A stretch of 14,362 bases of DNA from a bacterium. GTDB lineage: Bacteria > Patescibacteriota > Minisyncoccia > Minisyncoccales > DAOVPY01. Below the pieces are notes generated by a model. It made no database searches and was not told the DNA's origin. It was given only the letters and a program-made list of their open reading frames with translations. The stretch spans positions 1-14,362 of the forward strand of contig JAUVKU010000019.1 of the NCBI GenBank assembly GCA_030596105.1, given 5' to 3'. Each line of letters starts with the position of its first letter. Position 1 is the stretch's first letter. Both the position numbers and the translations under genes were made by a program. Below are positions 66 through 14,362 of this stretch, piece after piece.

Positions 66-1316
66 ATGCTTAAACCAAGAAAAATAGCTAAAATTATAAA
101 AAAATGGTTGCCTGAAAATGAATTTATTATTCTAAATGGCCCCAGACAAGTTGGCAAAACATCATTATTAAAAATATTAATGCAGGAATTAAAAAATAAT
201 AATATTCCTGAAAATAGAATATTTTATTTAAATTTTGAAGAAATCCAGATTTTAGAAAAAATAAATCAAAATCCGGAAAATTTATTAGATTATATTATTG
301 ATAAAAACAAAAAAAACTACTTTTTTATTGACGAAATACAGTATCTGGATAATCCTTCTAATTTTTTAAAACATATATATGATAAATATTCTTCAATTAT
401 AAAAATAATCGCTACCGGCTCATCCAGCCTGGAATTAAAAGCAAAATTCCAGGATTCGCTTGTGGGCAGAAAAGTTTCTTTTAATATTTTACCTCTTGAT
501 TATGAAGAATTTTTAATCTTTAAAAATTATAATGATCTTAATCATTTGGATAAAAATAATATTCCTTTGGAAATTAAATTAAAATACGATAAATTATTAA
601 AAGAATATTTAATTTATGGCGGAATGCCGGCAGTCGCGCTTCAGGATGATGCTATAAAAAAAGAAAAACTTCTTAGTGAATACGTTGATACCTACATTAA
701 TAAGGATATTAGGTCAATCGGCAGGATAGAAAATATTTCCAAATTTAATTCAATCTTAAAAATACTATGTTCACAAATTGGAAACCTGCTTAATATTAAT
801 GAACTATCAAACACAACTAACATCCCCAGAAGAAAAATTGAAAAATATTTAGATTTATTAAAACATACCTTTGTGCTTGATATAATTGATCCGTATAAAA
901 ATAATATCCGATCGCAGGTTTCTAAAATGCCCAAGACTTTCTTTTTTGACCTGGGCATTAGAAATGCTATTTTAAATAATTTTTTAGATCTGTCCGGCCG
1001 TCAGGATGATGCCGGACGCTTATTTGAAAATTTTGTTTTTTTGGAATTAAAAAATTTATATCAAAAAAATATTTATTTTTACCGCACGGTAAATAAATCC
1101 GAGATTGACTTTATTATTGAAAAAAATAATAAATTGTCATTAATTGAAGTAAAATATAAATCACTTAATAAACGAATTAATACGCGCGTTATTGCTAATT
1201 TTATTGATCATTCAAAGATCAGCGCCAAAGCAAGCCTTATTAATCTAAGTTTAATTGGCGAATTTAATAATGTTAGCTATATTGATTACAGAAAATTAGC
1301 AAAAAAAATAAAGTAG
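66..1316 (+). CDS. AAA+ ATPase of the DUF4143/COG1373 family, with an N-terminal P-loop ATPase and a C-terminal PD-(D/E)xK-like putative nuclease domain.
   Basis: 416-aa ORF with Walker A GPRQVGKTS and Walker B-like FFIDEIQ. C-terminal EIDFII...IEVKYK matches the D...ExK motif typical of the DUF4143 restriction-endonuclease-like fold. It is paralogous to the ORF at 2458-3615. Confidence 0.85.
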   Translation: MLKPRKIAKIIKKWLPENEFIILNGPRQVGKTSLLKILMQELKNNNIPENRIFYLNFEEIQILEKINQNPENLLDYIIDKNKKNYFFIDEIQYLDNPSNFLKHIYDKYSSIIKIIATGSSSLELKAKFQDSLVGRKVSFNILPLDYEEFLIFKNYNDLNHLDKNNIPLEIKLKYDKLLKEYLIYGGMPAVALQDDAIKKEKLLSEYVDTYINKDIRSIGRIENISKFNSILKILCSQIGNLLNINELSNTTNIPRRKIEKYLDLLKHTFVLDIIDPYKNNIRSQVSKMPKTFFFDLGIRNAILNNFLDLSGRQDDAGRLFENFVFLELKNLYQKNIYFYRTVNKSEIDFIIEKNNKLSLIEVKYKSLNKRINTRVIANFIDHSKISAKASLINLSLIGEFNNVSYIDYRKLAKKIK

Positions 1317-1736: not shown

Positions 1737-2015
1737 ATGAAATATTACGATTGGGATAATAAAAAAAATGAAAAATTAAAATTAGAACGAGATATTTGCT
1801 TTGAAGATATTATAGTTGCTATTGACGATAATGGCCTTTTAGATATAATTCAGCACGCAAACATAAAAAAATATCCAAATCAAAAAATATTCATAATAAA
1901 TATAAATAATTACGCGTATTTAATCCCTTTTATAGAAAATAAAGACAAAATATTTTTAAAAACAATTATTCCAAGCCGTAAGGCAACTAAAAAATATATA
2001 TTAAATGTAAAATAA
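1737..2015 (+). CDS. brnT: BrnT-family toxin (DUF497 ribonuclease toxin of the BrnT/BrnA type II TA system).
   Basis: 92-aa ORF. The C-terminal motif IIPSRKATKKY matches the conserved BrnT IISARKA(T/S)KKE(R) signature. It is immediately followed by the antitoxin gene with a 1-nt gap, the toxin-first order typical of BrnTA. Confidence 0.75.
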   Translation: MKYYDWDNKKNEKLKLERDICFEDIIVAIDDNGLLDIIQHANIKKYPNQKIFIININNYAYLIPFIENKDKIFLKTIIPSRKATKKYILNVK

Positions 2016-2016
2016 T

Positions 2017-2289
2017 ATGAAATATTATACTTTGGACAAAGAAGAAAAAAATATTACTAAAGACTTTGATTCTGATAAATTTGTTAGCATACAAAAATTA
2101 AAATCAGCTAAAGCAAAATATAAGCAATACGCTAAAACGACTTTAAGTAAGACGAAAAATATAAATATTAGATTATCTGAAAAAGATTTGCAAAAAATTA
2201 AAGCAAAGGCAATTGAAAAAGGCATCCCTTATCAAACTTTGTTAACCTCTCTTATTCATCAATGCGCAAGCAATAAAATTAAAGTCTAA
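2017..2289 (+). CDS. brnA: BrnA-family antitoxin (CopG/RHH-like, COG3514).
   Basis: 90-aa ORF. The C-terminal motif KAIEKGIPYQTLLTSLIHQ matches the BrnA G(I/Y)QT(L/R)IN..LR consensus. It is tightly coupled to brnT. Confidence 0.7.
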   Translation: MKYYTLDKEEKNITKDFDSDKFVSIQKLKSAKAKYKQYAKTTLSKTKNINIRLSEKDLQKIKAKAIEKGIPYQTLLTSLIHQCASNKIKV

Positions 2290-2417: not shown

Positions 2418-2460
2418 GCTGACCATATAGCGGTCAGCTATTTTGTTTTGGCTTTGTTTA
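2418..2460. repeat. Copy 2 of the hairpin repeat (GCTGACC-atatagc-GGTCAGC + TATTTTGTTTTGGCTTTGTTTA). Its tail supplies the stop codon of the minus-strand ATPase gene.
   Basis: Same stem and tail as copies 1, 3 and 4. The ATPase2 stop (TAA on the minus strand, 2460-2458) lies in the element tail. Confidence 0.8.
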
Positions 2461-3615
2461 GGAGATAAAATCTAAATAATTTTTTGGGGTAATGACTTTA
2501 AATTCGGCATTGTCATATGTGTCAAACCATAACTTGAGCGGTTTAACTTTTTTCTTAACATTCCATTTGAATTCATAACCATACAATTTACCATCTCTCT
2601 CTTCTATTAGGTCAATTTCTTTTTTGTCCCATGTTCGCCAGAAATATTGATTGGCATAAATTCGTTTATATGTCCGTGTTTTCATTCTTTCCAAAAAAAT
2701 AAAATTCTCCCACAATTGGCCGATATCATTGCGTAAATTAATAGCGTTAAAATTTTCTATAATCGCGTTTCTAATACCAATATCCAAGAAAAAATATTTA
2801 TCTTTTTTGGATATTTCTTTGCGTAAATTTCGACTAAACCCGCTCACACTCACAATAACAAAAGCCTTTTCCAATAAATCCAAATATCTGGCAACTGTCT
2901 TGTAGTCAATGTTTAAACTGTTGCTTAATTCTGTCAAAGATACTTCATTGCCGATTTGCCAGGCCAAAAGCTGTAATAAATCCCGTAAAATCTTTGGGCT
3001 TTTCGTCTTTTCCAAGGCTAAAACATCCTTTAATAAATATGAATCTGTGATTTCCATAAGTGCTTCCCTCTTTTTTCTATCTGTTTCGGCTGTAAGAACC
3101 TCCGGATAACAGCCAAAAAGCAATAATTGCTCTAACAGTTCATTTTGTAATTGATGCGGCGTGTAATATTTAGACAACTCTAAAACAGACAAAGGAAATA
3201 ATGTGTATGTGCGCTTTCTGCCTACTAATGGCTCTCCGATCTGACCGGCCAGCTCAAATGACGCTGAGCCGGTAACAATAATTTTAATATTTTCAACATG
3301 ATCAACAATGATCTTAAGGCCAAGGCCTATGTTGGGAATATTTTGCGCTTCATCAATAATCAATAATTCATAATCTTTGGCAAAACTAATTAAGCCATCA
3401 AAATCCGGCTCACTAAATATTGTCTTTAATTTCATATCATCTCCGGTGCTTTGAAAAGTTTTTAAAGTATTTTTTTCAGTAAAAATCTTTAGCAAGCTTG
3501 TTTTGCCTGCTTGCCTGGGGCCATATATTACCAAAACTTTTTGCGGCTGAAGCAATGAATTTAGATTATGCGCGCGATCAAAATATTGAATTTGCTTTTG
3601 AATTTGTAAAGACAT
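2458..3615 (-). CDS. AAA+ ATPase of the DUF4143/COG1373 family (P-loop ATPase plus PD-(D/E)xK-like C-terminal domain). Paralog of the gene at 66-1316.
   Basis: 385-aa ORF with Walker A GPRQAGKTS, Walker B LLIIDEAQ and C-terminal EIDLIEE...YEFKW (D...ExK). Collinear similarity to ORF 66-1316 across the full length. Confidence 0.85.
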   Translation of the reverse strand: MSLQIQKQIQYFDRAHNLNSLLQPQKVLVIYGPRQAGKTSLLKIFTEKNTLKTFQSTGDDMKLKTIFSEPDFDGLISFAKDYELLIIDEAQNIPNIGLGLKIIVDHVENIKIIVTGSASFELAGQIGEPLVGRKRTYTLFPLSVLELSKYYTPHQLQNELLEQLLLFGCYPEVLTAETDRKKREALMEITDSYLLKDVLALEKTKSPKILRDLLQLLAWQIGNEVSLTELSNSLNIDYKTVARYLDLLEKAFVIVSVSGFSRNLRKEISKKDKYFFLDIGIRNAIIENFNAINLRNDIGQLWENFIFLERMKTRTYKRIYANQYFWRTWDKKEIDLIEERDGKLYGYEFKWNVKKKVKPLKLWFDTYDNAEFKVITPKNYLDFIS

Positions 3616-6003: not shown

Positions 6004-6188
6004 TTCAATTTCAAATAATCATCTTCAAGCCCTAAGTATGCCTTTGTTATTCTTTCTCCGTTTTCAAAACCAAACTTTTTAAAAATTTCTTCCAATATTC
6101 CCTTTGATATTTTTACCTTTTTTTTATTGCAATAAGTATAAAAATAAAACAAAAAAACTATACTTTGCATATAGTTTATTAATACCAT
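6000..6188 (-). pseudogene. Short minus-strand ORF or gene remnant. Its C-terminal 37 aa (KISKGILEEIFKKFGFENGERITKAYLGLEDDYLKLN) look protein-like and its N-terminal half is low-complexity. It contains an A8 tract. Possible truncated or degraded gene.
   Basis: 62-aa ORF ending exactly in the repeat tail. It has no SD. The upstream half overlaps the promoter region of the plus-strand operon. An 8-A homopolymer sits inside the ORF. Confidence 0.2.
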
Positions 6189-6255
6189 AAATTTGTATTT
6201 GGTGAGGCGCTAACAATAAATACGCAAAATATTCACAAATAAACTTACGAGTGGC

Positions 6256-6353
6256 TTTACAAAAAGCTAAACAAATGCTATAGTATTTCGAACCACAAGG
6301 TAGTCTTAAAAAAGTGAAAAGATCTTATACAATTTTAAAAAAAGGAGGATAAA
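6256..6353 (+). promoter_or_regulatory. Promoter and leader L1: TTTACA (6256-6261), 17-nt spacer, TGcTATAGT (-10 at 6279-6284), a ~60-nt leader, then SD AAGGAGG (6341-6347). About 85% identical to the promoter and leader of the convergent SerRS operon (L2).
   Basis: Direct comparison with the reverse complement of 10968-11075. The -35, spacer, -10, leader core (...CCAAG.TAGTCTT...AAAAGATCTT.TACAATTT.AAAAAAGGAGG) and SD are all conserved. Confidence 0.7.
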
Positions 6354-7577
6354 ATGGGATATAAACAAAAGTATTCTGAAATTGTTAATTTAGAAGCCGT
6401 AAATGAATTTATGACTGAAAGAGGATGGCAAAGGCGCTCGTGTGATACATGTGGTAGGACTTTTTTCTCTAAACCATCTACCAAAATTGATGTATCGATA
6501 TGTGGCTGGCATAAGTGCAATAAAGGACATTATCAATTCTGTACTTACTCCAAGCGTAAAAAGATGCTAGAACCTGTGCAAATTAGCTCAAAGATGAGTA
6601 AATATTTCCGCTCAGTCGGTTTCGAGCTAATAACACCTCGGAACATCGCTAATTTCAAAGGTCAGACTGACTTGGTCATCGCTGGTGTACAAATATTCGA
6701 TGATGTCATCCATCATAACCAAAAAATCTGCAAAGACAAAATGTTCGTGGTGCAACCATGTGTACGTATGCAATTCCAACCGCATGTCGAGTCACAAGAA
6801 GGGACATCGACATCTTTCGTAAACGTATGTACTGAAAATATGGAAGTAAATTTTAGAGAACATCTACAATTAGTAGATCACTGGTGTACGATTCTCTCAA
6901 AACTCGGACTTCACATGAACGATTTCATTATTACTATAAGAACATCAGTCAAAGACTGGGGGACCGGAAAATTCTCAGCACTTGAGCTCTTTTTCTCCTA
7001 CGGAGGACTCGAGCTTGGAGATGCCACCTATCTACTTATTCCCCAAGCGAGCCGGTCGGCTATCTCGATTAGTGATATTGGATTCGGACTCGAAAGAATT
7101 GTTTGGGCTATCAACAAAACCGATTCCTACTTCGATACGCTAATTCCTTGGACAGCGAATGGCACGCGTGAAATGTTCGACTCATGTCGAACGCTTGCGC
7201 TTCTGATTCTTTGTGGAGTACAGGCAACAAACAAGGGTCCAGGCCTCCAGTTTAGACGATTTGCAAAAGTGATTAGTGGAAAATACTACGGTGCGAATAT
7301 ATATGGCATTTTAAGGTATTATTTCGATTACTGGGCTCAATTCATTGAGCCGTCTATCAGCCGAGAATCCGCCATTCATCTCGCTCGTTTGGAGATCGAA
7401 AGATTCGTCAATCTGAAAATCTATAAAACTTTAAAACTCCCATCGCCTCGTGATGAAACGACAGAAACCTATTTCAATCGTTTGGTGTATACTTACAATA
7501 TCAACATTTATAAATTGCGTAAAGCAATGCAGGACGTGTTACCAAATGCCGAAAATCAGTACATTTCCAATTCTTAG
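6354..7577 (+). CDS. Paralog of the alanyl-tRNA synthetase catalytic (aminoacylation) domain. Truncated at 407 aa, with no tRNA-recognition, editing or C-Ala domains. It has a Cys/His-rich N-terminal extension (CDTCGR...ICGWHKCNKGH...C).
   Basis: Collinear matches to AlaRS N-terminal motifs. FRSVGFELITP..DLVIAGVQIFDDV resembles FL.FF.SKGH..V.SSSLVP.NDPTLLFTNAGMNQFKDVF. QPCVR matches the motif-2 region QRCVR. DIGFGLERIVWAINKTDSYFDT matches DTGMGLERIAAVLQ..NYD.DLF. LLILCGVQATNKGPGLQFRRFAKV matches FLIADGV.PSNEGRGYVLRRIIRR. The strong SD AAGGAGGataaaATG supports the start. Confidence 0.75.
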   Translation: MGYKQKYSEIVNLEAVNEFMTERGWQRRSCDTCGRTFFSKPSTKIDVSICGWHKCNKGHYQFCTYSKRKKMLEPVQISSKMSKYFRSVGFELITPRNIANFKGQTDLVIAGVQIFDDVIHHNQKICKDKMFVVQPCVRMQFQPHVESQEGTSTSFVNVCTENMEVNFREHLQLVDHWCTILSKLGLHMNDFIITIRTSVKDWGTGKFSALELFFSYGGLELGDATYLLIPQASRSAISISDIGFGLERIVWAINKTDSYFDTLIPWTANGTREMFDSCRTLALLILCGVQATNKGPGLQFRRFAKVISGKYYGANIYGILRYYFDYWAQFIEPSISRESAIHLARLEIERFVNLKIYKTLKLPSPRDETTETYFNRLVYTYNINIYKLRKAMQDVLPNAENQYISNS

Positions 7578-7644
7578 CGGCTTAAATAAGCTAAAAAATG
7601 GAAAACAATCAAAAATAGTCGTTTAGCAACAGTCCCCTATAAAC

Positions 7645-8340
7645 ATGCAAAACATAAAGGAGCACAATCGAATATATTTGTCGGGGGGTGGTAATGAGAA
7701 ACAATCATTTCCCCTCGACAAATTTTTTTTTCGTACATTGCCTAAAAATGGACGCTTTTTATATATACCTATAGCACTCCGTGGCCATAAGCTTTATGCC
7801 ACAACACGTTTTTGGATGAAGGGTATCACAAAATTTCACAAAAGAATAGATGTTCAGTTTGAAACAATGGATAATCCGTCAAAATATCAACTTAAAGATT
7901 TAAAAAAGTTTGATGGAATATATATAGGTGGTGGCAATACATGGAGCTTAATTCAAGAATTTAAAAACTCTGGATTAGCTAATATTTTGATTCAGTACAT
8001 TAAAGCCGGGGGTCATATATATGGAGGAAGTGCGGGAGCAATTATTATGGGGAAAAGAATTGACACTCACGATGATGAAAATAAAATGAATATAAAAGAT
8101 GTGTCTGGCTTTAATATCCTTAATAATTTTTCGATAACCTGTCATTTTACAGATGAACAAAGTAATAGATTTAAAGCATGGGCTATAAATAATAACTTAC
8201 CAATTATTTGCTTATCAAAAGAAACCGGCCTAATTATAGAAAAAAACGTCGCTTTATGCGTTGGCACTAAACCTTGCATTATTTATTTTGCCGATGGCAC
8301 AAAACTGAAAGTTACTCCTAAAAAATCTTTTAATCTATAA
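7645..8340 (+). CDS. Peptidase family S51 (PepE alpha-aspartyl dipeptidase / cyanophycinase-like).
   Basis: GIYIGGGNTWSLI matches PepE IIVGGGNTFQLL. GHIYGGSAGAII matches the catalytic Ser motif YIGWSAGANL. TCHF matches the catalytic His region NPHF. Confidence 0.75.
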   Translation: MQNIKEHNRIYLSGGGNEKQSFPLDKFFFRTLPKNGRFLYIPIALRGHKLYATTRFWMKGITKFHKRIDVQFETMDNPSKYQLKDLKKFDGIYIGGGNTWSLIQEFKNSGLANILIQYIKAGGHIYGGSAGAIIMGKRIDTHDDENKMNIKDVSGFNILNNFSITCHFTDEQSNRFKAWAINNNLPIICLSKETGLIIEKNVALCVGTKPCIIYFADGTKLKVTPKKSFNL

Positions 8341-8343
8341 AAA

Positions 8344-8372
8344 AGTACCCATATCTTAACGACATGGGTACT
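8344..8372. terminator. Bidirectional rho-independent-like terminator between the convergent operons: AGTACCCAT-N11-ATGGGTACT, with an A-run 5' and an AT-rich tract 3'.
   Basis: Perfect 9-bp inverted repeat (8344-8352 and 8364-8372). It sits in the 43-bp gap between the convergent stops at 8340 and 8384. Confidence 0.6.
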
Positions 8373-8383
8373 GAAATAATTAT

Positions 8384-9643
8384 TTAAAACAAATTTAATT
8401 CTCCTTTCACAATCTTCTGAGTAGTCTTGTTAATGTCGGCCAAATTGCGTTCGACAATCGCTTCGATCATCTGACGCTGATTAGACATTACTTTTTCACC
8501 ACAGACTTCAACACATGCAAACCATGGATTTGACAGACTTCTGCCCATCTGGGATGTCAGATATACATATGTTTCAAGTCCAATGAAACGATAAATCTCA
8601 TCAGAAATCAAAGAACAGATGGCGGTGTAAAGCTTGCCCACATGATAGACAGGATTCTTACCACAACAAGCCTCCATGCTCATATGCCGGGTAAATGGAA
8701 TAACGCCATTATGCCGATTACCTCGACCAACGACACCTTCGTCGCCACTCTCAATAGCGCTTCCCGTCAATGTGAGATAATAATCCGATTTGTTCAAGTT
8801 GTCTCTCGTGTTAAGCGAAACAGTGACATCGAACTGCCCAAACTTAGATACTACCAATTGCTTAATAAAATCTTCAAGGAATTGGAGCTTCTTAAAATAG
8901 AACTCCTTATCTGGGGTATAGACTGCAATAAACGGAATACAAACAGTGATACCTAAACGCTTTTTCATACGTTTGACCATTACCTTAATATCTGTGCCAA
9001 CATAGGGATAAAGCTTTTTGAACTCCTTCTCATTCAACGTGGTCTCAATGAACATCACGATTTTCTCGGTGGTGCTAAGAGGGCTATAAGCCACAGCCGT
9101 CGAGGTATCGTTGGAGCGCAGGTTGTTATCATGAAAAATCGCAAACTCCTTCTGTGGAATCTCAAAAAAGAACTGGCGTTCATTCTGTGTCGATCCATCA
9201 GCTTCGTATACAACACCGGGACCAGGCGCGCAATGAGTATTATCAACGATTGTGAGCCATTGATCCAGATCAAGAAGCGGCAGGACATTAACAAAATGCT
9301 TATAGACCGTCTCTTTGACAATCTTAAGATAAGGAATGTCTTCTTGCTGATAAGTTCTAGTAAACCGGCAGTTGAGATAAAGCCTAATCGGTTTTTGCAT
9401 CTCACCGCCACCGAACTTGACCTTTGTGGCACCACCCGACAATGCAATCTTGTCAACCATGTGCCGCAAGATGATACCATAGCGTTTTAAACAGTATTGT
9501 GAATACGCTTGAGACACTTTTTCTGCAATTGTGTCACAGAGAGTGTCAGGATGACCGATGCCTTTGCGTTCGACGATCTCAAATTCTGTGTTGTTGATGC
9601 TAGGCGTTCCTGACGAATAAACGAGTAAATTTTCTTTGTCCAT
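8384..9643 (-). CDS. S-adenosylmethionine synthetase, archaeal type (MAT; PF01941 family).
   Basis: GIGHPDTLCD matches the archaeal MAT GxGHPDSxCD. LTGSAIESGDEGVVGRGNRHNGVIPFTRHMSMEACCGKNPVYHVGKLY matches the archaeal MAT signature LTG(T)SAE.GDDG.VGRGNR.NGLI.P.R.MSMEAA.GKNPV.HVGKIY. Strong SD (AAAGGAGGtaataaATG) 34 nt downstream of the serS stop, so the two are co-transcribed. Confidence 0.85.
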   Translation of the reverse strand: MDKENLLVYSSGTPSINNTEFEIVERKGIGHPDTLCDTIAEKVSQAYSQYCLKRYGIILRHMVDKIALSGGATKVKFGGGEMQKPIRLYLNCRFTRTYQQEDIPYLKIVKETVYKHFVNVLPLLDLDQWLTIVDNTHCAPGPGVVYEADGSTQNERQFFFEIPQKEFAIFHDNNLRSNDTSTAVAYSPLSTTEKIVMFIETTLNEKEFKKLYPYVGTDIKVMVKRMKKRLGITVCIPFIAVYTPDKEFYFKKLQFLEDFIKQLVVSKFGQFDVTVSLNTRDNLNKSDYYLTLTGSAIESGDEGVVGRGNRHNGVIPFTRHMSMEACCGKNPVYHVGKLYTAICSLISDEIYRFIGLETYVYLTSQMGRSLSNPWFACVEVCGEKVMSNQRQMIEAIVERNLADINKTTQKIVKGELNLF

Positions 9644-9677
9644 TTATTACCTCCTTTATAGGAATGTTAACCCAAAA

Positions 9678-10967
9678 TTAAAATTTTCTAGCTTTCGGTT
9701 TGATATATTGCAATCCTGTGTAATCTTGTAAAATTTCAGGAATTAACACTGTTCCGTCGGCCTGCTGGTTATTCTCGAGGATGGCGAGTATCGTTCGAGT
9801 AACAGCCACAGCTGTGCCATTGAGAGTATGAACGAAGTCGATCTTGCCAGTCACCCTATTCTTAAATTTAGTGTTCAATCGGCGTGCCTGGAAATCCGTA
9901 CAATTAGATGCAGAGGTTACTTCGCCGTATCCGCCACCTTCGCCGATAAAAGGCATCCATGCCTCAATATCATACTTTCGGTAAGCAGGCGTTCCGAGAT
10001 CGCCCTTGCACATAAGTAAAACTCGGTAAGGAAGCTCCAGTGCTTGGTAAAATTCTTCTTCAATCGCAAGCATCTCTTCGTGAACGATTGCACTTTTGTC
10101 TGGATGAACAAACTGATAAAGCTCAACTTTACTAAACTGGTGCACACGGTAGAGACCCTTACTTTCTCGACCACCACTTCCTGCTTCTGTCCTGAAACAG
10201 TGGCTGACACCCGAAATCTTGATTGGAAGATTTTTTTCCGGAATCACAGCATTAGCCATATAACCACCAAGAGTAATTTCAGAGGTGCCTATAAGGCTTA
10301 ATGCCCCTTTGGTCAGAGAATAAATTTGACTTTCAGGACCTCGCGGAGAGAATCCGGAAGCAGTGATGATCTTGTCACGAGCAATCTCCGGTGTCGTCAC
10401 CGGAGTAAACCCATGCTTAATTGCCAATTCTAACGCATAGCGAATAAGACCGAGCTCCAGAAGAACAGCTTCGTTCTTTAAAAAATAAAATTTGGAGCCA
10501 GTGACTTTTGCTGCTGCCTCGAAATCCAGGATATCCAATTTTTTGCCTAACTCGACGTGATCAAGTGGCTTGAAACCAAACTTAGTGGGCTCTCCGATGT
10601 ATTTAATAGGAACATTTCCGTATTCATCCTTGCCCTGTGGTACGTCCGATGCAACAAGATTAGGTATCTTAAGCATCTCCTCAGTGTACTCGTTTTCCAC
10701 AAACACAATCTCATCCTTAATGACCGCTATAGTTTGTTTGAGACCAACTACCTCTGCCTTGAGTTGTTTGCGAGTTGTCTTATCAGCACTCTTGAACCGT
10801 CCAGCAATCTGATTGGAACGACGCTGAATTTCTTCAAGACTCTGTCGCTTTTGTTTCAGTTGTCCATAAAGAGTAACTACTTTATCGACATCCACATTAG
10901 CATAGCGTTCACGCGTGTTCTGTTTAATTAAATCAACGTTTTTAAGAATAAATCTAATATCCAACAT
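9678..10967 (-). CDS. serS: Seryl-tRNA synthetase. Full length, with an N-terminal coiled-coil plus class II catalytic core.
   Basis: 429 aa. The motif-2/3 regions SHCFRTEAGSGGRESKGLYRVHQF, LELPYRV, GDLG and HTLNGTAVAVTRTILAILENNQ are typical of SerRS. SD AAGGAGG is upstream. Confidence 0.9.
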   Translation of the reverse strand: MLDIRFILKNVDLIKQNTRERYANVDVDKVVTLYGQLKQKRQSLEEIQRRSNQIAGRFKSADKTTRKQLKAEVVGLKQTIAVIKDEIVFVENEYTEEMLKIPNLVASDVPQGKDEYGNVPIKYIGEPTKFGFKPLDHVELGKKLDILDFEAAAKVTGSKFYFLKNEAVLLELGLIRYALELAIKHGFTPVTTPEIARDKIITASGFSPRGPESQIYSLTKGALSLIGTSEITLGGYMANAVIPEKNLPIKISGVSHCFRTEAGSGGRESKGLYRVHQFSKVELYQFVHPDKSAIVHEEMLAIEEEFYQALELPYRVLLMCKGDLGTPAYRKYDIEAWMPFIGEGGGYGEVTSASNCTDFQARRLNTKFKNRVTGKIDFVHTLNGTAVAVTRTILAILENNQQADGTVLIPEILQDYTGLQYIKPKARKF

Positions 10968-11075
10968 AACATATTCCTCCTTTTTTGAAATTGTAAAAGA
11001 TCTTTTTATCTCTCCAAGACTATCTTGGAATTCAAAATACTATAGCATTTGTTTGGTTTTTTGTAAAGTCAAATT
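10968..11075 (-). promoter_or_regulatory. Promoter and leader L2 for the serS-MAT operon: -35 TTTACA (plus 11062-11067), 17-nt spacer, -10 TGcTATAGT (plus 11039-11044), and a leader with a CCAAGA-TAGT-TCTTGG hairpin and SD AAGGAGG. Duplicate of L1.
   Basis: The reverse complement aligns base-for-base with 6256-6350 at roughly 85% identity. Confidence 0.7.
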
Positions 11076-11183
11076 TTTAATCAAATCCCCACAAACAACC
11101 AAATAACCCCTAAAACAACCCATTAACAAGATAACACATAAATTTAAAACTTATCTGATTTAAGTATTTTCTAACACTTTTTA

Positions 11184-11372: not shown

Positions 11373-11401
11373 TTGACGTATTTTTTATTTTATGCTATAG
11401 T
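11373..11401 (+). promoter_or_regulatory. Promoter: TTGACG (11373-11378), 17-nt spacer, TGcTATAGT (-10 at 11396-11401). It drives the ~300-nt leader upstream of the SPFH gene.
   Basis: Near-consensus hexamers with an extended -10 TGc motif, the same motif as in L1 and L2. Confidence 0.6.
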
Positions 11402-11407
11402 AATTTA

Positions 11408-11704
11408 TCAAACAAATAAATATATTCCCCCTAAAAATTGTTCGGCATCAAAATGGTGCTGGGCTATATCTTATTCTTTAGGCTCATCGGGTAGTGCGGG
11501 TCTGATATTGATAGTAAACATAAGTAAAAACCGCGTTAATTATCAGTATCAGACCCGAACAAGCATGGGGATGCATAGGTAATATATTGAACTCAAAAAA
11601 ATATTTACCGCTACTACCCGATAAGCGTGGAGAATAAAAAAACTGGAGGGAGTGATTCACCGCGAATCGCCCTTTGACAACTAAATAAAAAATGGAAGGA
11701 AAAG
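11408..11704 (+). ncRNA. Long structured 5' leader or candidate cis-regulatory RNA of unassigned family. An outer helix ATCGGGTAGTGCGG (11485-11498) / CCGCtACTACCCGAT (11609-11623) encloses a 16-bp hairpin GGGTCTGATATTGATA (11497-11512) / TATCAGTATCAGACCC (11539-11554). A possible long-range TCCCC (11426-11430) / GGGGA (11567-11571) pairing is also present.
   Basis: Complementarities were found by eye. The segment is roughly 300 nt with no convincing ORF (track ORF 11373-11582 begins at the promoter -35). The GC-rich pairing segments stand out against the AT-rich background. Confidence 0.35.
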
Positions 11705-13159
11705 GTGATAAAAATGAGTGACACTGTAAAAAAAGAAATCGGAAAATACAAGAGAGAAGGGGAAAAGGAAATGGAGTGCCATCTTAAAGTCATGGACATT
11801 TTAACTGACGAAAAGAACAAAGCTATATCAGCTTTTAAAAGCAAGGGAATTTGGAAACTCTGGACAAAAAAATATGTCAATAATATCATCAAGGCAGCAA
11901 AAAAATACAATAAACGACTGCATGATAGAGACATATTTGACGAGTCAATCAAGCCATCTAATGATAGCTCTTACAAATTTAATGAAGATGAAATGTACGA
12001 ATTGCCAGCTATCATTAAAGCCGATAGAAAAGAAAAAATAGATTTGGAAAAAAAACTTAATGAAGCTAAAGAGCCAGAAAAAGATGCCATTGAGAAATCA
12101 ATCAAGCTCTTGGAAAACAGGATTAAAGATTTTGATGAAAAGCTGAAACTGCACCGCAAAGACTTCAGCGAAGGACAAGTTAAATCTATTGAGCTGGCTG
12201 AGCTTGAATCAATTCTGATGAAAAAAATCAGGCAAAAGACTGGTTGTGAAAGAATTAATAATTTTTGGATTGCTATTGTTTTATCTCTCCAGTACTTATC
12301 CCTGTTATCAATCTATCTCCTTAATATTTTTACCGATTTTGGAGTAAATTCTCTCTGGTCATTACCAGCCACTTTGGCTTTATTCGCGCTTATTCTTATT
12401 GGTAGTTTTAGAATTGTTAACCAAAACCGAGAATGGAGCATGAGCTTGTTGGGTAAATATGTAACCACTTGGGAAGCTGGTCTTCACTTTAAAATTCCAC
12501 TTCTTATGAAAGTGGACAGTAAAATCTATCTTGGCACTCTGGTTAAAACCCTGTATATGGACGAAAGAAAACGCGGTGATGGCAACGAAAAAATTAGCGC
12601 CAAAGTTGATTTTGCTAACGGCTCTGCCGAAGTAATTACTGAGCTGTTTATTAGAATCTTTGATACCTATAATTCTACTTATCTAATTGATAACGTAGTT
12701 GAATCAGTTAAGGAAAAGATGGAAGCCGGAATCCGTGCTTACTACGGACCGATCTCAATTGATCAAGCAATTGAAACCCGAGCGGAAGTTTATCTTCGGA
12801 AGATAATTTCTCAGGGCGCGACTGAAGCTGATAGATTTAAAGCATGGGGAACAATTATTGAAAGCTTAGCGGTTACCGACATTAAATTGCCGCCTGATCT
12901 GGAGAAAAAAAGAAACGAAGTTTTGATGGCGGATAAAGATTATGAAATATCCAAAATCAACAAAGAGAAAGAGGTAGTAATTGCTAAAACTGTAAAAATT
13001 CGTGGCAAAGGACGCGGTAATGAAATTAAATCCTTGTCAAAATCATCTGGGATATCCGTGCCTGAAGCTGTCCAATATGACTTAACTGAACGACGTTACG
13101 CTGCTTGGGCTAAGGCCGGCGTTTTAATCGCTAGCGACTCTGAAAAAACAACCGAATAG
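11705..13159 (+). CDS. SPFH/band-7 (stomatin/prohibitin/HflKC-like) membrane protein with an unusual ~190-aa N-terminal charged coiled-coil domain and two predicted TM helices. It probably extends to 13295 through a frame change; see findings.
   Basis: SPFH core: RIVNQNREWSMSLLGKYVTTWEAGLHFKIPLLMKVDSKIYLGTLVKTLYMD...ITELFIRIFD...DIKLPPDLEKK. SD aaGGtGA lies 7 nt upstream of the ATG. Confidence 0.8.
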   Translation: MIKMSDTVKKEIGKYKREGEKEMECHLKVMDILTDEKNKAISAFKSKGIWKLWTKKYVNNIIKAAKKYNKRLHDRDIFDESIKPSNDSSYKFNEDEMYELPAIIKADRKEKIDLEKKLNEAKEPEKDAIEKSIKLLENRIKDFDEKLKLHRKDFSEGQVKSIELAELESILMKKIRQKTGCERINNFWIAIVLSLQYLSLLSIYLLNIFTDFGVNSLWSLPATLALFALILIGSFRIVNQNREWSMSLLGKYVTTWEAGLHFKIPLLMKVDSKIYLGTLVKTLYMDERKRGDGNEKISAKVDFANGSAEVITELFIRIFDTYNSTYLIDNVVESVKEKMEAGIRAYYGPISIDQAIETRAEVYLRKIISQGATEADRFKAWGTIIESLAVTDIKLPPDLEKKRNEVLMADKDYEISKINKEKEVVIAKTVKIRGKGRGNEIKSLSKSSGISVPEAVQYDLTERRYAAWAKAGVLIASDSEKTTE

Positions 13160-13294
13160 CGCTATTGCCGGAGCCGTAGCCGGAGCTGCCGCTCGTGTCA
13201 GCGCCGACTCAATTAAAGACGTAAAAACCACTACCGAAGACGTAGAAACCGCAACCAGCGCCAGTAGTCCAGACGAGGGTGAAGGAGGTGAATA

Positions 13295-14014
13295 ATGACA
13301 ATAGAAATTGAAGTAAAAAAAGACACAAACCAGGATGCGCCCAGTACGCCAAGTACTGATTCTGCAAATCCAATTATCCAAAAACTAAAAGATGAATGGC
13401 TTAAAATGGTTCACACCCTAATTATCGCGATATTTTTCAGCTTTTTCATTAAAGAAATGATTGAGCTTGGTGCGCCAACTAATGAAATTAAAAATATCGC
13501 CTACCTTGCGCTCGCCACTGTTTTACTTATGTTAGGAAAACTTGGAAGAGCCAATTGGGGAAGGTATATACCTTGGATGGCAATACCGATAATAATCGTA
13601 ATCGCATTAGGCTGGATTTTTTACTTAGAAAACAAACGACCTGGAACCGAAAATACAAATCCTATTCAAATTCTTTATAACAGGACAATAGGAGACGGTT
13701 CCCGAGCCAATAACAATACAGCCAACAAAGAAAAAGAATGTACTGACTGTGAACTACTTAATTCCGGCCAATACAAAGTCGTGGTGGTGGAAGCTGGAGA
13801 AAAACCTGAAAATTACCTGCGCCTACCAAAAGCTGGACATCCTTTTCATGTTGGTTATAATAATGAACAAACTCACTTCTATCTTAAAACAAGAAGTGGG
13901 AAAATTATTACATTTGCTCAAATAAAAAGTGGGCATTTCTATATTAACGAACGGGATTTCATGGTTGTACCAACCAAAAACAAAAAACTTAAAGTAGGTA
14001 TTGAAGTAACCTAA
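13295..14014 (+). CDS. Membrane protein with 3 predicted TM helices and a ~125-aa C-terminal beta-rich soluble domain. Possible NfeD-like partner of the SPFH protein.
   Basis: 239-aa ORF. Hydrophobic segments: LIIAIFFSFFI, IAYLALATVLLML and IPWMAIPIIIVIALGWIF. The ATG overlaps the TAA of the upstream open frame (TAATG). SD GAAGGAGGTG. The SPFH-adjacent genomic position is typical of NfeD. Confidence 0.6.
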   Translation: MTIEIEVKKDTNQDAPSTPSTDSANPIIQKLKDEWLKMVHTLIIAIFFSFFIKEMIELGAPTNEIKNIAYLALATVLLMLGKLGRANWGRYIPWMAIPIIIVIALGWIFYLENKRPGTENTNPIQILYNRTIGDGSRANNNTANKEKECTDCELLNSGQYKVVVVEAGEKPENYLRLPKAGHPFHVGYNNEQTHFYLKTRSGKIITFAQIKSGHFYINERDFMVVPTKNKKLKVGIEVT

Positions 14015-14044
14015 AAAGAAACTTCAAGATATGATCTTTAAAAA

Positions 14045-14078
14045 AGGACCATTTGCAAATATGCTATGGTCCTTTTTC
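14045..14078 (+). terminator. Rho-independent terminator: AGGACCAT-N13-ATGGTCCT followed by TTTTT, then a TTGGCTTTA tail.
   Basis: 8-bp perfect stem (14045-14052 and 14066-14073) followed by a T-run at 14074-14078. Confidence 0.7.
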
Positions 14079-14234
14079 CTTTGGCTTTAATATGTTAATA
14101 TAAAACAAATTTATGCTAATATTAAACAACTATACCTTGACAAACACTAAATTACAGTATATAATAGCAATACAAAATAAAATAAGCCAATATAACCCAT
14201 ATAACAAAAACAAACAAAAACAAGGAGGTGTACC

Positions 14235-14362
14235 ATGAAAAATGGTAAAATAGTTATTTATGCAGTATTGGTTTTGTTCATTTCATCAATAAATTGTTTT
14301 TCTTCGGACCTAATCAAAGAGGCAAATCGTTATCTATCGGAAAACAACCCTGTAATGACAGT
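14235..14362 (+). CDS. 5' end of a secreted or membrane protein with a signal-peptide-like N-terminus. Partial; runs off the window.
   Basis: SD GGAGGTG lies 4 nt before ATG 14235. The N-terminus MKNGKIVIYAVLVLFISSINCFSS is a typical signal or lipoprotein-like leader. Confidence 0.5.
   Translation, partial: MKNGKIVIYAVLVLFISSINCFSSDLIKEANRYLSENNPVMT

What the first reader, a model, noticed from the sequence alone, without database searches (positions are those of the whole stretch)
13128..13297. Stop-free GC-rich 56-codon stretch after the SPFH stop, ending in TAATG: probable frameshift or indel at an A6 tract
The SPFH ORF stops at TAG 13157-13159. In the +1 frame the sequence from 13128 to 13295 is completely open. 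It is strongly GC-rich and Ala/Gly/Thr-rich (..AIAGAVAGAAARVSADSIKDVKTTTEDVETATSASSPDEGEGGE*), and it ends in TAATG overlapping the ATG of the next gene, which is classic translational coupling. Fifty-six stop-free codons are improbable by chance in a ~30% GC genome. The only place the two frames can be joined is 13128-13156, which contains the homopolymer AAAAAA (13143-13148). Either the assembly carries a 1-nt homopolymer error and the SPFH protein is really ~529 aa with an Ala-rich C-terminal tail, or there is a programmed +1 frameshift or transcriptional slippage at A6.
Basis: seen in the sequence. Interest (0 to 1): 0.55.

Follow-up and report, generated by a model that had tools for sequence, protein, structure and literature searches.

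The report
One-base homopolymer frameshift splitting SPFH gene
The GC-rich open stretch is the true, conserved C-terminal end of a membrane-scaffold (SPFH/stomatin-like) gene that one extra A in a run of six A's has knocked out of frame; it is an ordinary unprogrammed indel (assembly error or very recent mutation), not a recoding signal.

Summary
The SPFH ORF stops at TAG 13157-13159. The +1 frame is open from 13128 to TAA 13293-13295, which overlaps the ATG of the next gene.

Openness alone is weak evidence (P about 0.015 with window composition, about 0.11 with local composition). Homology decides it:
- All 33 homologues examined carry a contiguous Gly/Ala-rich tail that aligns with the +1-frame product.
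- Eleven homologous DNA loci read through this junction in one frame.
- The closest relative for this region (P0021) reads ...DSEGQPNSALTGAVAGAAA, against DSEK|QPNSAIAGAVAGAAA in the window.
- This leaves four A's (13145-13148) for one codon, so the extra base lies inside the A6 run (A5 expected).

Orthologues have no A-run there. There is no flanking RNA structure and no rare A-site codon. Rescue at the mRNA level would need a deletion, so programmed frameshifting or slippage is not supported.

The tail shows coding signatures: pN well below pS, host-like codon usage, and GC concentrated at codon positions 1 and 2.

Reads were not available, so whether the extra A is an assembly or consensus error, a minority allele, or a fixed recent mutation cannot be settled. 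This is an ordinary finding of low interest. The practical result is a corrected gene model of 526 aa (529 aa from GTG 11705).

The parts
11714..13148 (+). Body of the SPFH (Band 7, stomatin/QmcA-like) gene: N-terminal coiled-coil extension, hydrophobic membrane segment, SPFH domain, coiled coil, and the conserved strand ...KAGVLIASDSEK. An alternative GTG start lies at 11705.
   Evidence: ORF list. Pfam Band_7 scores 31.7 bits against a cutoff of 23.6. Best PDB match is QmcA 8z5g, E=3.2e-15. Alignment A1.
13143..13148 (+). A6 homopolymer holding the one extra base. A5 would restore a single 526-aa ORF reading GAA AAA CAA CCG AAT AGC.
   Evidence: 'DSE' (SPFH frame) ends at 13144. 'QPNSA' (tail frame, shared with P0021) starts at 13149. 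That leaves 4 A's for one codon. MAFFT places a one-column gap in all three orthologues inside this run.
13157..13159 (+). Premature TAG stop created by the frame error. It follows the out-of-frame residues T-T-E.
   Evidence: None of the 33 homologues ends here.
13149..13295 (+). True 3' end of the SPFH gene in the +1 frame: 48 codons (QPNSAIAGAVAGAAARVSADS...EGEGGE) plus TAA. It encodes the family-wide Gly/Ala-rich C-terminal segment.
   Evidence: Alignments A1 and A4. 31 of 33 homologues carry the G[AST]x1-3[GA] motif. pN is 0.34-0.47 against pS 0.69-0.76. The codon-usage index is 0.71 in this frame, against 0.51 and 0.54 in the other two frames and 0.72 +/- 0.07 for the window's genes.
13284..13288 (+). 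GGAGG Shine-Dalgarno of the downstream gene, embedded in the last codons of the tail (E-G-G) and 6 nt before the ATG.
   Evidence: Sequence. The same GGAGG sits near the stop in L001, L002 and L011.
13295..14014 (+). Downstream 239-aa membrane protein gene whose ATG overlaps the tail's TAA (TAATG). A membrane-protein partner occupies this position in orthologous loci.
   Evidence: Every orthologous locus with sequence downstream of the SPFH gene has a small membrane protein gene directly after it; the window protein is 31% identical to the L011 one. Three N-terminal helices are predicted. No Pfam or NCBIfam match.

Best explanation
There is one gene here, not a gene plus an odd ORF.

Shown:
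- Positions 13149-13295 are the real 3' end of the SPFH gene and encode its conserved Gly/Ala-rich C-terminal segment.
- The true stop (TAA 13293-13295) overlaps the start of the conserved downstream membrane-protein gene, whose Shine-Dalgarno lies inside the last codons.
- In this contig the run 13143-13148 has six A's where the reading frame needs five. The ORF therefore leaves frame after ...SDSEK and ends at TAG 13157.
- The extra A is an unprogrammed homopolymer indel.

Inferred, and my commitment: the six-A state is not the organism's fixed, functional state. It is either a consensus or assembly error, or a minority slip allele that the assembler picked up. The functional product would then be the 526-aa protein (529 aa from the GTG).

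By analogy with solved stomatin, QmcA and other SPFH cages, the tail lies beyond the cap-forming strand (here GVLIASD) and helps close or stabilise the oligomeric cap. That functional role is inference, not tested here.

My estimate is about 0.9 that this is an unprogrammed indel of any kind, and about 0.55 that it is an artefact or unfixed allele.
For: Homologues:
- All 9 first-round and 24 further homologues continue 16-52 residues past the junction, and 31 of 33 carry the small-residue motif.
- Eleven homologous DNA loci read through in a single frame: ten by tblastn and L011.
- P0021 shares DSE-x-QPNSA across the junction. The DNA alignment shows exactly one extra base in the window, placed in the A-run.

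Coding signatures of the tail:
- pN is below pS against three orthologues.
- 16 of the first 21 tail residues are identical to P0021.
- Codon usage is typical of the window's genes in that frame only.
- GC by codon position is 0.67/0.60/0.42, so the high GC is driven by amino-acid composition.

Operon context:
- L001 has the same TAATG junction between the full-length gene and the downstream gene.

An intact, conserved tail means the shift is either not real or very young.

The functional role of SPFH C-termini comes from the literature (PMC12624060; bioRxiv 10.1101/2025.08.30.673307).
Against: - No reads or independent assembly across the A-run could be obtained. The fused 526-, 527- and 529-aa proteins are absent from the 15-billion-protein collection, and the Logan assembly of the same population lacks this gene.
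- The contig otherwise looks accurate. An independent Logan contig is 100% identical over 5151 nt.
- 74 other homopolymer runs (A/T of at least 6, or G/C of at least 5) in the window's genes break no gene.
- Both of these points raise the chance that A6 is truly present in the DNA.
Confidence: 0.55

Rival explanations
1. This is a genuine, fixed and recent frameshift mutation caused by replication slippage (A5 to A6). The organism would then make a 481-aa SPFH protein that keeps the GVLIASD strand but lacks the 48-residue C-terminal segment. Ribosomes would stop 136 nt before the downstream gene, which would rely on its own Shine-Dalgarno. This would be a gene on its way to decay, or a tolerated truncation.
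For: - Assembly accuracy elsewhere is high: 5151 nt are identical to an independent Logan contig.
- Only 1 of 75 counted homopolymer runs in genes is associated with a frame break, and the other genes give full-length domain matches.
- AT-rich reduced genomes are prone to slips at A-runs (established knowledge).
- The downstream gene has a strong GGAGG of its own.
Against: - The tail is universal in the family, 33 of 33.
- Distal C-terminal residues matter for oligomerisation in stomatin, so loss should be selected against.
- The tail shows no decay at all: no stops, conserved residues, 55-58% GC in a 34% GC genome. Any real mutation must therefore be very young.
Confidence: 0.33
2. This is programmed or compensatory recoding. 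Full-length protein would be made from the A6 template in one of two ways. In the first, tRNA-Lys slips +1 on A_AAA_A (AAA 13145-13147 to AAA 13146-13148). In the second, RNA polymerase slips on the A-run. Either would give two isoforms, with and without the cap segment.
For: - Perfect re-pairing of tRNA-Lys is possible in the +1 frame, and it would give exactly ...SEKQPNSA.
- The tail and the TAATG coupling are intact.
- Compensatory frameshifting on indels is documented, mainly in organelles and endosymbionts (PMC5009743).
Against: - Not conserved. The three closest orthologues have GAAGGC, GAAAAT or GAAGGT there and a single frame, and all eleven homologous loci are in one frame.
- The A-site codon ACA is the commonest Thr codon, 19.9 per 1000. 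There is no stop or hungry codon and no SD-like element upstream.
- There is no significant RNA structure 3' (z = -0.07) or 5' (z = +0.99) of the run.
- Transcriptional slippage rises exponentially with run length and mostly inserts bases. Rescue here needs a 1-nt deletion or a 2-nt insertion, and that study saw no frame-restoring events (PMC5574713).
Confidence: 0.06
3. The stretch is an independent small gene (about 45-55 aa, Ala/Gly-rich peptide) translated on its own and coupled to the downstream gene.
For: It is open, has host-like codon usage, and ends in TAATG.
Against: - There is no ATG, GTG or TTG start in the frame: the stretch is absent from the ORF list at a minimum of 40 aa, and reading the codons from 13128 shows no start codon in the frame.
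- There is no Shine-Dalgarno upstream.
- In every relative the same residues are fused to the SPFH protein.
Confidence: 0.02
4. This is a chance open frame in a GC-rich non-coding element such as an RNA or a repeat.
For: Openness alone is not rare: 0.11 given local composition, and 8 of 719 off-frame runs reach 56 codons.
Against: - Protein-level conservation across 33 homologues, and pN below pS.
- No Rfam hit.
- The fold is no better than shuffles.
Confidence: 0.01

Closest known systems
QmcA (YbbK) with YbbJ of E. coli, the stomatin-type SPFH/NfeD pair (PDB 8z5g)
   Same: - It is the best solved-structure match to the family profile (E=3.2e-15).
- Both have a membrane anchor, an SPFH domain and a coiled coil followed by a C-terminal cap region.
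- In both, the SPFH gene is followed directly by a small multi-pass membrane protein gene.
   Different: - This family has an N-terminal coiled-coil extension of about 180 aa before the membrane segment.
- The HMM match does not cover the C-terminal tail.
- The downstream protein has no detectable NfeD domain.
- The gene in this contig is out of frame.
C-terminal domain of human stomatin (beta-barrel residues 264-273 plus the distal segment)
   Same: After the coiled coil comes a short hydrophobic strand (STIVFPLP in stomatin, from my own knowledge of the sequence; GVLIASD here). A small-residue or hydrophobic segment follows. In stomatin the distal part is needed for oligomerisation and may occlude the cap pore.
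   Different: - There is no sequence homology in this segment. The resemblance is positional only.
- The role of the tail here was not tested, and the AF2 monomer model gives pLDDT of about 30 for it.
Homopolymer-associated frameshifts in AT-rich reduced genomes (Buchnera, Blochmannia) and their proposed rescue by transcriptional slippage
   Same: A single-base indel in an A-run, in an AT-rich small genome, with the downstream frame intact.
   Different: - The cases considered rescued involve long runs (about 9-11 nt, from my own knowledge).
- Slippage frequency rises exponentially with run length.
- Here the run is only 6, and rescue would need a deletion.
prfB-type programmed +1 ribosomal frameshift
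   Same: A +1 frame change is needed, and P-site re-pairing is possible.
   Different: - No in-frame stop or rare codon in the A site.
- No upstream SD-like stimulator.
- No conservation among orthologues.

Membership tests
SPFH / Band 7 superfamily (stomatin/QmcA-like) | SPFH (Band_7) domain detectable above the curated threshold | tested here: met
   PF01145 scores 31.7 bits against a cutoff of 23.6, residues 234-419. The profile hits QmcA 8z5g at E=3.2e-15 and archaeal and human stomatins.
SPFH / Band 7 superfamily (stomatin/QmcA-like) | Membrane anchor N-terminal to the SPFH domain | tested here: met
   A hydrophobic stretch at about residues 183-232 precedes the domain. The orthologue model has long helices 151-199 and 207-224 immediately before the first strand. 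No dedicated TM predictor was run.
SPFH / Band 7 superfamily (stomatin/QmcA-like) | Coiled-coil helices after the domain, followed by a C-terminal cap segment | tested here: met
   Helices 388-424, 428-439 and 443-461 in the P0002 model. The C-terminal strand plus Gly/Ala tail is conserved in 33 of 33 homologues. In the window this is met only after removing one A.
SPFH / Band 7 superfamily (stomatin/QmcA-like) | Assembly into a large ring or cage oligomer | not testable with these tools
   Only a monomer model was made. This needs multimer modelling or experiment.
SPFH-NfeD operon | Partner gene encodes an NfeD-domain protein | tested here: not met
   No NfeD or any other significant Pfam or NCBIfam hit for the downstream proteins of 8 loci, even at E up to 10. 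The architecture (3 helices plus a C-terminal region) is similar, but the single-sequence model is unusable (pLDDT about 30).
Programmed +1 ribosomal frameshift | Shift site and two-frame arrangement conserved among orthologues | tested here: not met
   All eleven homologous loci are in a single frame, and there is no A-run at the site in L001, L002 or L011.
Programmed +1 ribosomal frameshift | Slow A-site codon (stop or rare) and/or stimulatory element | tested here: not met
   The A-site codon ACA is the most used Thr codon. There is no SD-like sequence upstream. Flanking folds have z = -0.07 and +0.99.
Programmed transcriptional slippage | Long A/T run (typically at least 8-9, from my own knowledge) or hairpin-assisted short run, conserved | tested here: not met
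   The run is 6 nt, there is no upstream hairpin, and it is not conserved. Slippage frequency rises exponentially with run length and favours insertions.
Programmed recoding (either kind) | Full-length product actually made from the out-of-frame template | not testable with these tools
   Needs proteomics or RNA-seq.

The most novel reading that the evidence does not exclude
A6 is the true, fixed genomic state, and a low level of +1 slippage of tRNA-Lys on A_AAA_A (or RNA polymerase slippage) still yields some full-length protein. The cell would then make a mixture of capped (526-aa) and cap-less (481-aa) SPFH subunits. This would be a lineage-specific 'compensated indel' that could tune cage closure and expression of the downstream partner.
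Probability: 0.04. Interest if true: 0.45.

Novelty: already known. Interest (0 to 1): 0.12.

Why it matters
The main value is annotation hygiene. The deposited 481-aa protein model is truncated, and the correct product is 526 aa (529 aa from the GTG) with a family-defining C-terminal segment. The apparent 136-nt 'intergenic' gap before the next gene is in fact coding sequence.

The case also shows that the Gly/Ala-rich tail is a universal feature of this family of long-N-terminus SPFH proteins, in which the named relatives are Patescibacteria. It always sits next to a fast-evolving small membrane partner. That may interest people working on SPFH cage caps.

Nothing here bears on recoding biology unless reads prove A6 and the tail peptide is detected.

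Tried and rejected
Independent sequence across the A-run. All attempts failed.
- Exact look-ups of the corrected 526-, 527- and 529-aa proteins and of the 484-aa variant found nothing.
- P0001 and the downstream protein are not on record in the contig index.
- A homology search with the downstream protein found only itself.
- A Logan contig from SRR18936874 matches window 6006-11156 perfectly but stops about 560 nt before the gene start at 11714.

Relatives.
- Genome and metagenome collection scans gave only relatives of at most 39% identity. No same-species copy was found.

RNA explanations.
- No Rfam hit at gathering score.
- The folds around the A-run are no better than shuffles.

Read-through of TAG in the SPFH frame was rejected. 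It gives RYCRSRSRSCRSCQRRLN*, which is not conserved (read).

A -1 shift was rejected. It leads to the wrong frame, with a stop after about 12 codons (read).

Structure.
- The monomer AF2 model of orthologue P0002 leaves the tail at pLDDT of about 30.
- The single-sequence AF2 model of the downstream protein is unusable beyond three helices.
- No fold search was run for either.

NfeD identity of the partner gene was not supported.
Full report
**1. The observation**

The window was read at 11400-14362 and ORFs were listed.
- An ORF with a Band_7/SPFH domain (Pfam PF01145, 31.7 bits against a cutoff of 23.6) runs from GTG 11705 or ATG 11714 to TAG 13157-13159.
- In the next frame there is a TAA at 13125-13127, followed by 55 sense codons from 13128. 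They read SLATLKKQPNSAIAGAVAGAAARVSADSIKDVKTTTEDVETATSASSPDEGEGGE and end at TAA 13293-13295.
- The last A of that TAA is the first base of ATG 13295, the start of a 239-aa ORF (13295..14014).
- The run of six A's is at 13143-13148.
- GC reaches 0.56-0.58 here, against 0.34 for the whole window.

**2. Is it more than chance?**

Length alone says little.
- The probability of 55 open codons is about 0.015 with the window's base composition.
- It is about 0.11 if the region's own bases are shuffled.
- 8 of 719 off-frame stop-free runs inside the window's genes reach 56 codons.

Other signals show that the stretch is coding.
- GC by codon position in that frame is 0.67/0.60/0.42. The high GC therefore sits at positions 1 and 2 and reflects Ala, Gly, Thr, Asp and Glu codons.
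- A codon-usage index built from the window's own genes gives 0.71 in this frame. The other two frames give 0.51 and 0.54. Real 48-codon gene windows give 0.72 +/- 0.07, with a minimum of 0.58.

**3. Homology**

I searched 5.8 billion proteins with a conceptual protein in which one A was removed.
- Besides the window's own 481-aa product (P0001, a single contig of 14362 nt, which means the window is the whole contig), nine homologues were found.
- P0002 is 513 aa, 56% identical, and covers 98% of the corrected query.
- In alignment A1 all nine continue past ...K(A/S)G(V/M/I)LI(A/V)xD... into ...SA(I/L/V)xGA(A/V)xGxxx. This aligns with the +1-frame product of the window, whereas P0001 stops after three out-of-frame residues.

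A profile search of 1.84 billion representatives gave 1469 hits at E<=1e-3 and 90 at E<=1e-30.
- I fetched 24 more.
- Across all 33 homologues, the protein continues 16-52 residues beyond the junction.
- 31 of 33 carry a G[AST]x1-3[GA] motif within 30 residues.
- None ends where the window's ORF ends.

At the DNA level, tblastn of the corrected protein against ten homologous loci gave one HSP per locus, each in a single frame. Eight of these are orthologues at 36-56% identity and two are distant relatives at 23-24%. In-frame extension of each HSP runs on to a stop beyond the junction. L011 adds an eleventh single-frame locus.

**4. Where the extra base is**

P0021, a closer relative for this region, reads ...KAGILIAGDSEGQPNSALTGAVAGAAAHIAADS. 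The window reads ...KAGVLIASDSEK in the SPFH frame and QPNSAIAGAVAGAAARVSADS in the tail frame.
- 'DSE' ends at 13144.
- 'QPNSA' begins at 13149.
- The four bases between them (13145-13148, all A) must supply one codon.

The DNA of L011 (P0021), L001 (P0002) and L002 (P0003) was fetched and aligned. MAFFT places a single one-column gap in all three orthologues, inside the window's A-run.
- Window: TCT GAA AAA [A] CAA CCG AAT AGC GCT
- L011: TCC GAA GGC CAG CCA AAC AGC GCG

The frame error is therefore one extra A in the homopolymer (A6 where A5 is needed).

**5. Selection on the tail**

Codon-aligned comparison of the corrected window gene with the three orthologues gives tail pN of 0.34-0.47 and pS of 0.69-0.76.
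- The first 21 tail residues are 16/21 identical to P0021.
- There are no stops, and there is no drift towards the AT-rich background.
- The tail has been under purifying selection until very recently at the least.

**6. Operon context**

In L001 the full-length gene ends ...GAAGGAGGAAAATAATGACA. This is the same TAATG overlap with the downstream gene, with GGAGG inside the last codons.
- L002 has TAATCATG.
- L011 has a 12-nt spacer.
- Every orthologous locus with sequence downstream of the SPFH gene carries a small membrane-protein gene directly after it. These proteins evolve fast: the window protein is 31% identical to the L011 one, and the others are not detectable by BLAST.
- They have no Pfam or NCBIfam match, NfeD included.

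As the contig stands, ribosomes would stop 136 nt upstream, and the partner would depend on its own GGAGG (13284-13288).

**7. What the tail probably does (inference)**

The family profile matches E. coli QmcA (8z5g, E=3.2e-15) and stomatins.
- In solved SPFH cages the C-terminal domains form the cap (PMC12624060).
- In human stomatin the beta-strand barrel (264-273) and the next residues (274-276) are needed for oligomerisation. The distal C-terminus may occlude the hydrophobic pore (bioRxiv 10.1101/2025.08.30.673307).
- By position, GVLIASD corresponds to the cap strand and the Gly/Ala segment to the distal part.
- A monomer AF2 model of P0002 predicts a short helix over SALTGAVAGVAA, but at pLDDT of about 30. 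This remains an analogy.

**8. Programmed recoding?**

The evidence is against it.
- The three closest orthologues have GAAGGC, GAAAAT or GAAGGT at the site and a single frame. Neither the slippery run nor the two-frame layout is conserved.
- The A-site codon after the possible P-site AAA is ACA, the commonest Thr codon in the window at 19.9 per 1000.
- No SD-like stimulator precedes the site.
- RNA folds 3' and 5' of the run are no better than shuffles (z = -0.07; z = +0.99).
- Transcriptional slippage frequency grows exponentially with run length and mainly inserts bases. Rescue here needs a 1-nt deletion or a 2-nt insertion, and that genome-wide study saw no frame-restoring events (PMC5574713).
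- Compensatory frameshifting on indels does exist, mostly in organelles and endosymbionts (PMC5009743). I therefore leave a few per cent for this reading.

**9. Artefact or real mutation?**

This could not be settled. Three points make an artefact less likely:
- A Logan contig from run SRR18936874 is 100% identical to window 6006-11156, with no gaps. The same population was sequenced with accurate reads, and the MAG is faithful there.
- The window's 13 genes hold 75 homopolymer runs (A/T of at least 6, or G/C of at least 5), and only this one breaks a gene.
- The other genes give full-length domain matches.

Two points make a fixed mutation less likely:
- The tail is universal in the family.
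- The tail is perfectly preserved here.

No independent assembly covers the A-run.
- The corrected proteins are absent from the 15-billion-protein collection.
- The SPFH gene and its partner are not in the Logan assembly.

My split:
- Assembly or consensus error, or unfixed minority allele: about 0.55.
- Fixed recent mutation: about 0.33.
- Recoding: about 0.06.
- Independent small ORF or chance: about 0.03.

**10. Comparison with what is known, and verdict**

This is a stomatin/QmcA-like SPFH gene from a bacterium that is probably a member of the Patescibacteria (the named relatives are Patescibacteria and Parcubacteria MAGs). It carries an ordinary one-base homopolymer indel.
- The phenomenon is of a known kind and of low interest.
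- The useful outcome is the corrected gene model, plus the note that the Gly/Ala C-terminal segment and the adjacent membrane partner are conserved features of this SPFH subfamily.

Noticed in passing
window 11471-11637 (+), between serS (9678..10967, -) and the SPFH gene: Nested long inverted repeats: an outer pair at 11471-11495/11613-11637 and an inner pair at 11494-11519/11535-11560. As plus-strand RNA, 11440-11650 folds at -86.7 kcal/mol (z = -10.3); the minus strand gives z = -7.5. There is no Rfam match at gathering score or at E<=1, and no similar sequence in the orthologous loci. It could be an unknown structured RNA or 5' leader, or a DNA-level element.
   Followed up: partly
L011:1-230 (ENA ERZ23498389 scaffold_374260): Three to four direct repeats of about 36-40 nt (GTCGTAACCCCGCCGAATCGGCGGCCATTTTCAAC), spaced 72-74 nt apart like a CRISPR array, abut a 5'-truncated copy of the SPFH gene. 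Homology to the window protein starts at residue 256. This is either an array replacing the 5' half of the gene or a chimeric contig.
   Followed up: partly
window 13280-13297; L001:2000-2024; L002:2030-2052; L011:925-948: The Shine-Dalgarno GGAGG of the downstream gene lies at or just before the stop of the SPFH gene. In the window, L001 and L002 it sits inside the last codons, which explains the recurrent ...GG(E/K)* C-terminus. In L011 it follows the stop codon directly.
   Followed up: yes
window 13295-14014 and the genes after the SPFH gene in L001-L003 and L006-L011: Every orthologous locus with sequence downstream has a small membrane protein directly after the SPFH gene: a charged N-terminus, 1-3 hydrophobic helices and a C-terminal soluble part. 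The position is conserved but the sequence diverges very fast, and there is no NfeD or other family match. It may be a functional analogue of NfeD partners.
   Followed up: partly
window 11714-12260 (SPFH residues 1-180): This SPFH subfamily has a long N-terminal coiled-coil extension of about 180 residues before the membrane segment. It is predicted as long helices in the orthologue model. QmcA matches only from profile position 188 onward.
   Followed up: no
window 8384-9643 (-): The S-adenosylmethionine synthetase matches Pfam family PF01941 (AdoMet_Synthase, E=1e-107). From my own knowledge this is the archaeal-type family, although the contig looks like a Patescibacteria-like bacterial one.
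   Followed up: no
window 66-1316 (+), 2458-3615 (-), 1737-2289 (+): Two paralogous AAA_14/DUF4143 ATPase genes flank a BrnT-like toxin / CopG-type antitoxin pair with adjacent ORFs (1737-2015 and 2017-2289). GC here is 0.21-0.34, lower than in the housekeeping genes.
   Followed up: no
window 6006-11156: An independent Logan contig (SRR18936874_95592, 5151 nt) is 100% identical to this part of the window. This identifies a public run that holds the same population. Most window genes are also present in Logan, but not 66-1316, 2458-3615, the SPFH gene or its partner.
   Followed up: yes
window 13124-13381 (-): An 85-aa minus-strand ORF overlaps the tail. It is a shadow of the GC-rich coding region and not a gene.
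   Followed up: partly
window 6354-7577 (+): A 407-aa ORF, Cys- and His-rich near its N-terminus, has no Pfam match at E<=0.01. It is also present in the Logan assembly.
   Followed up: no
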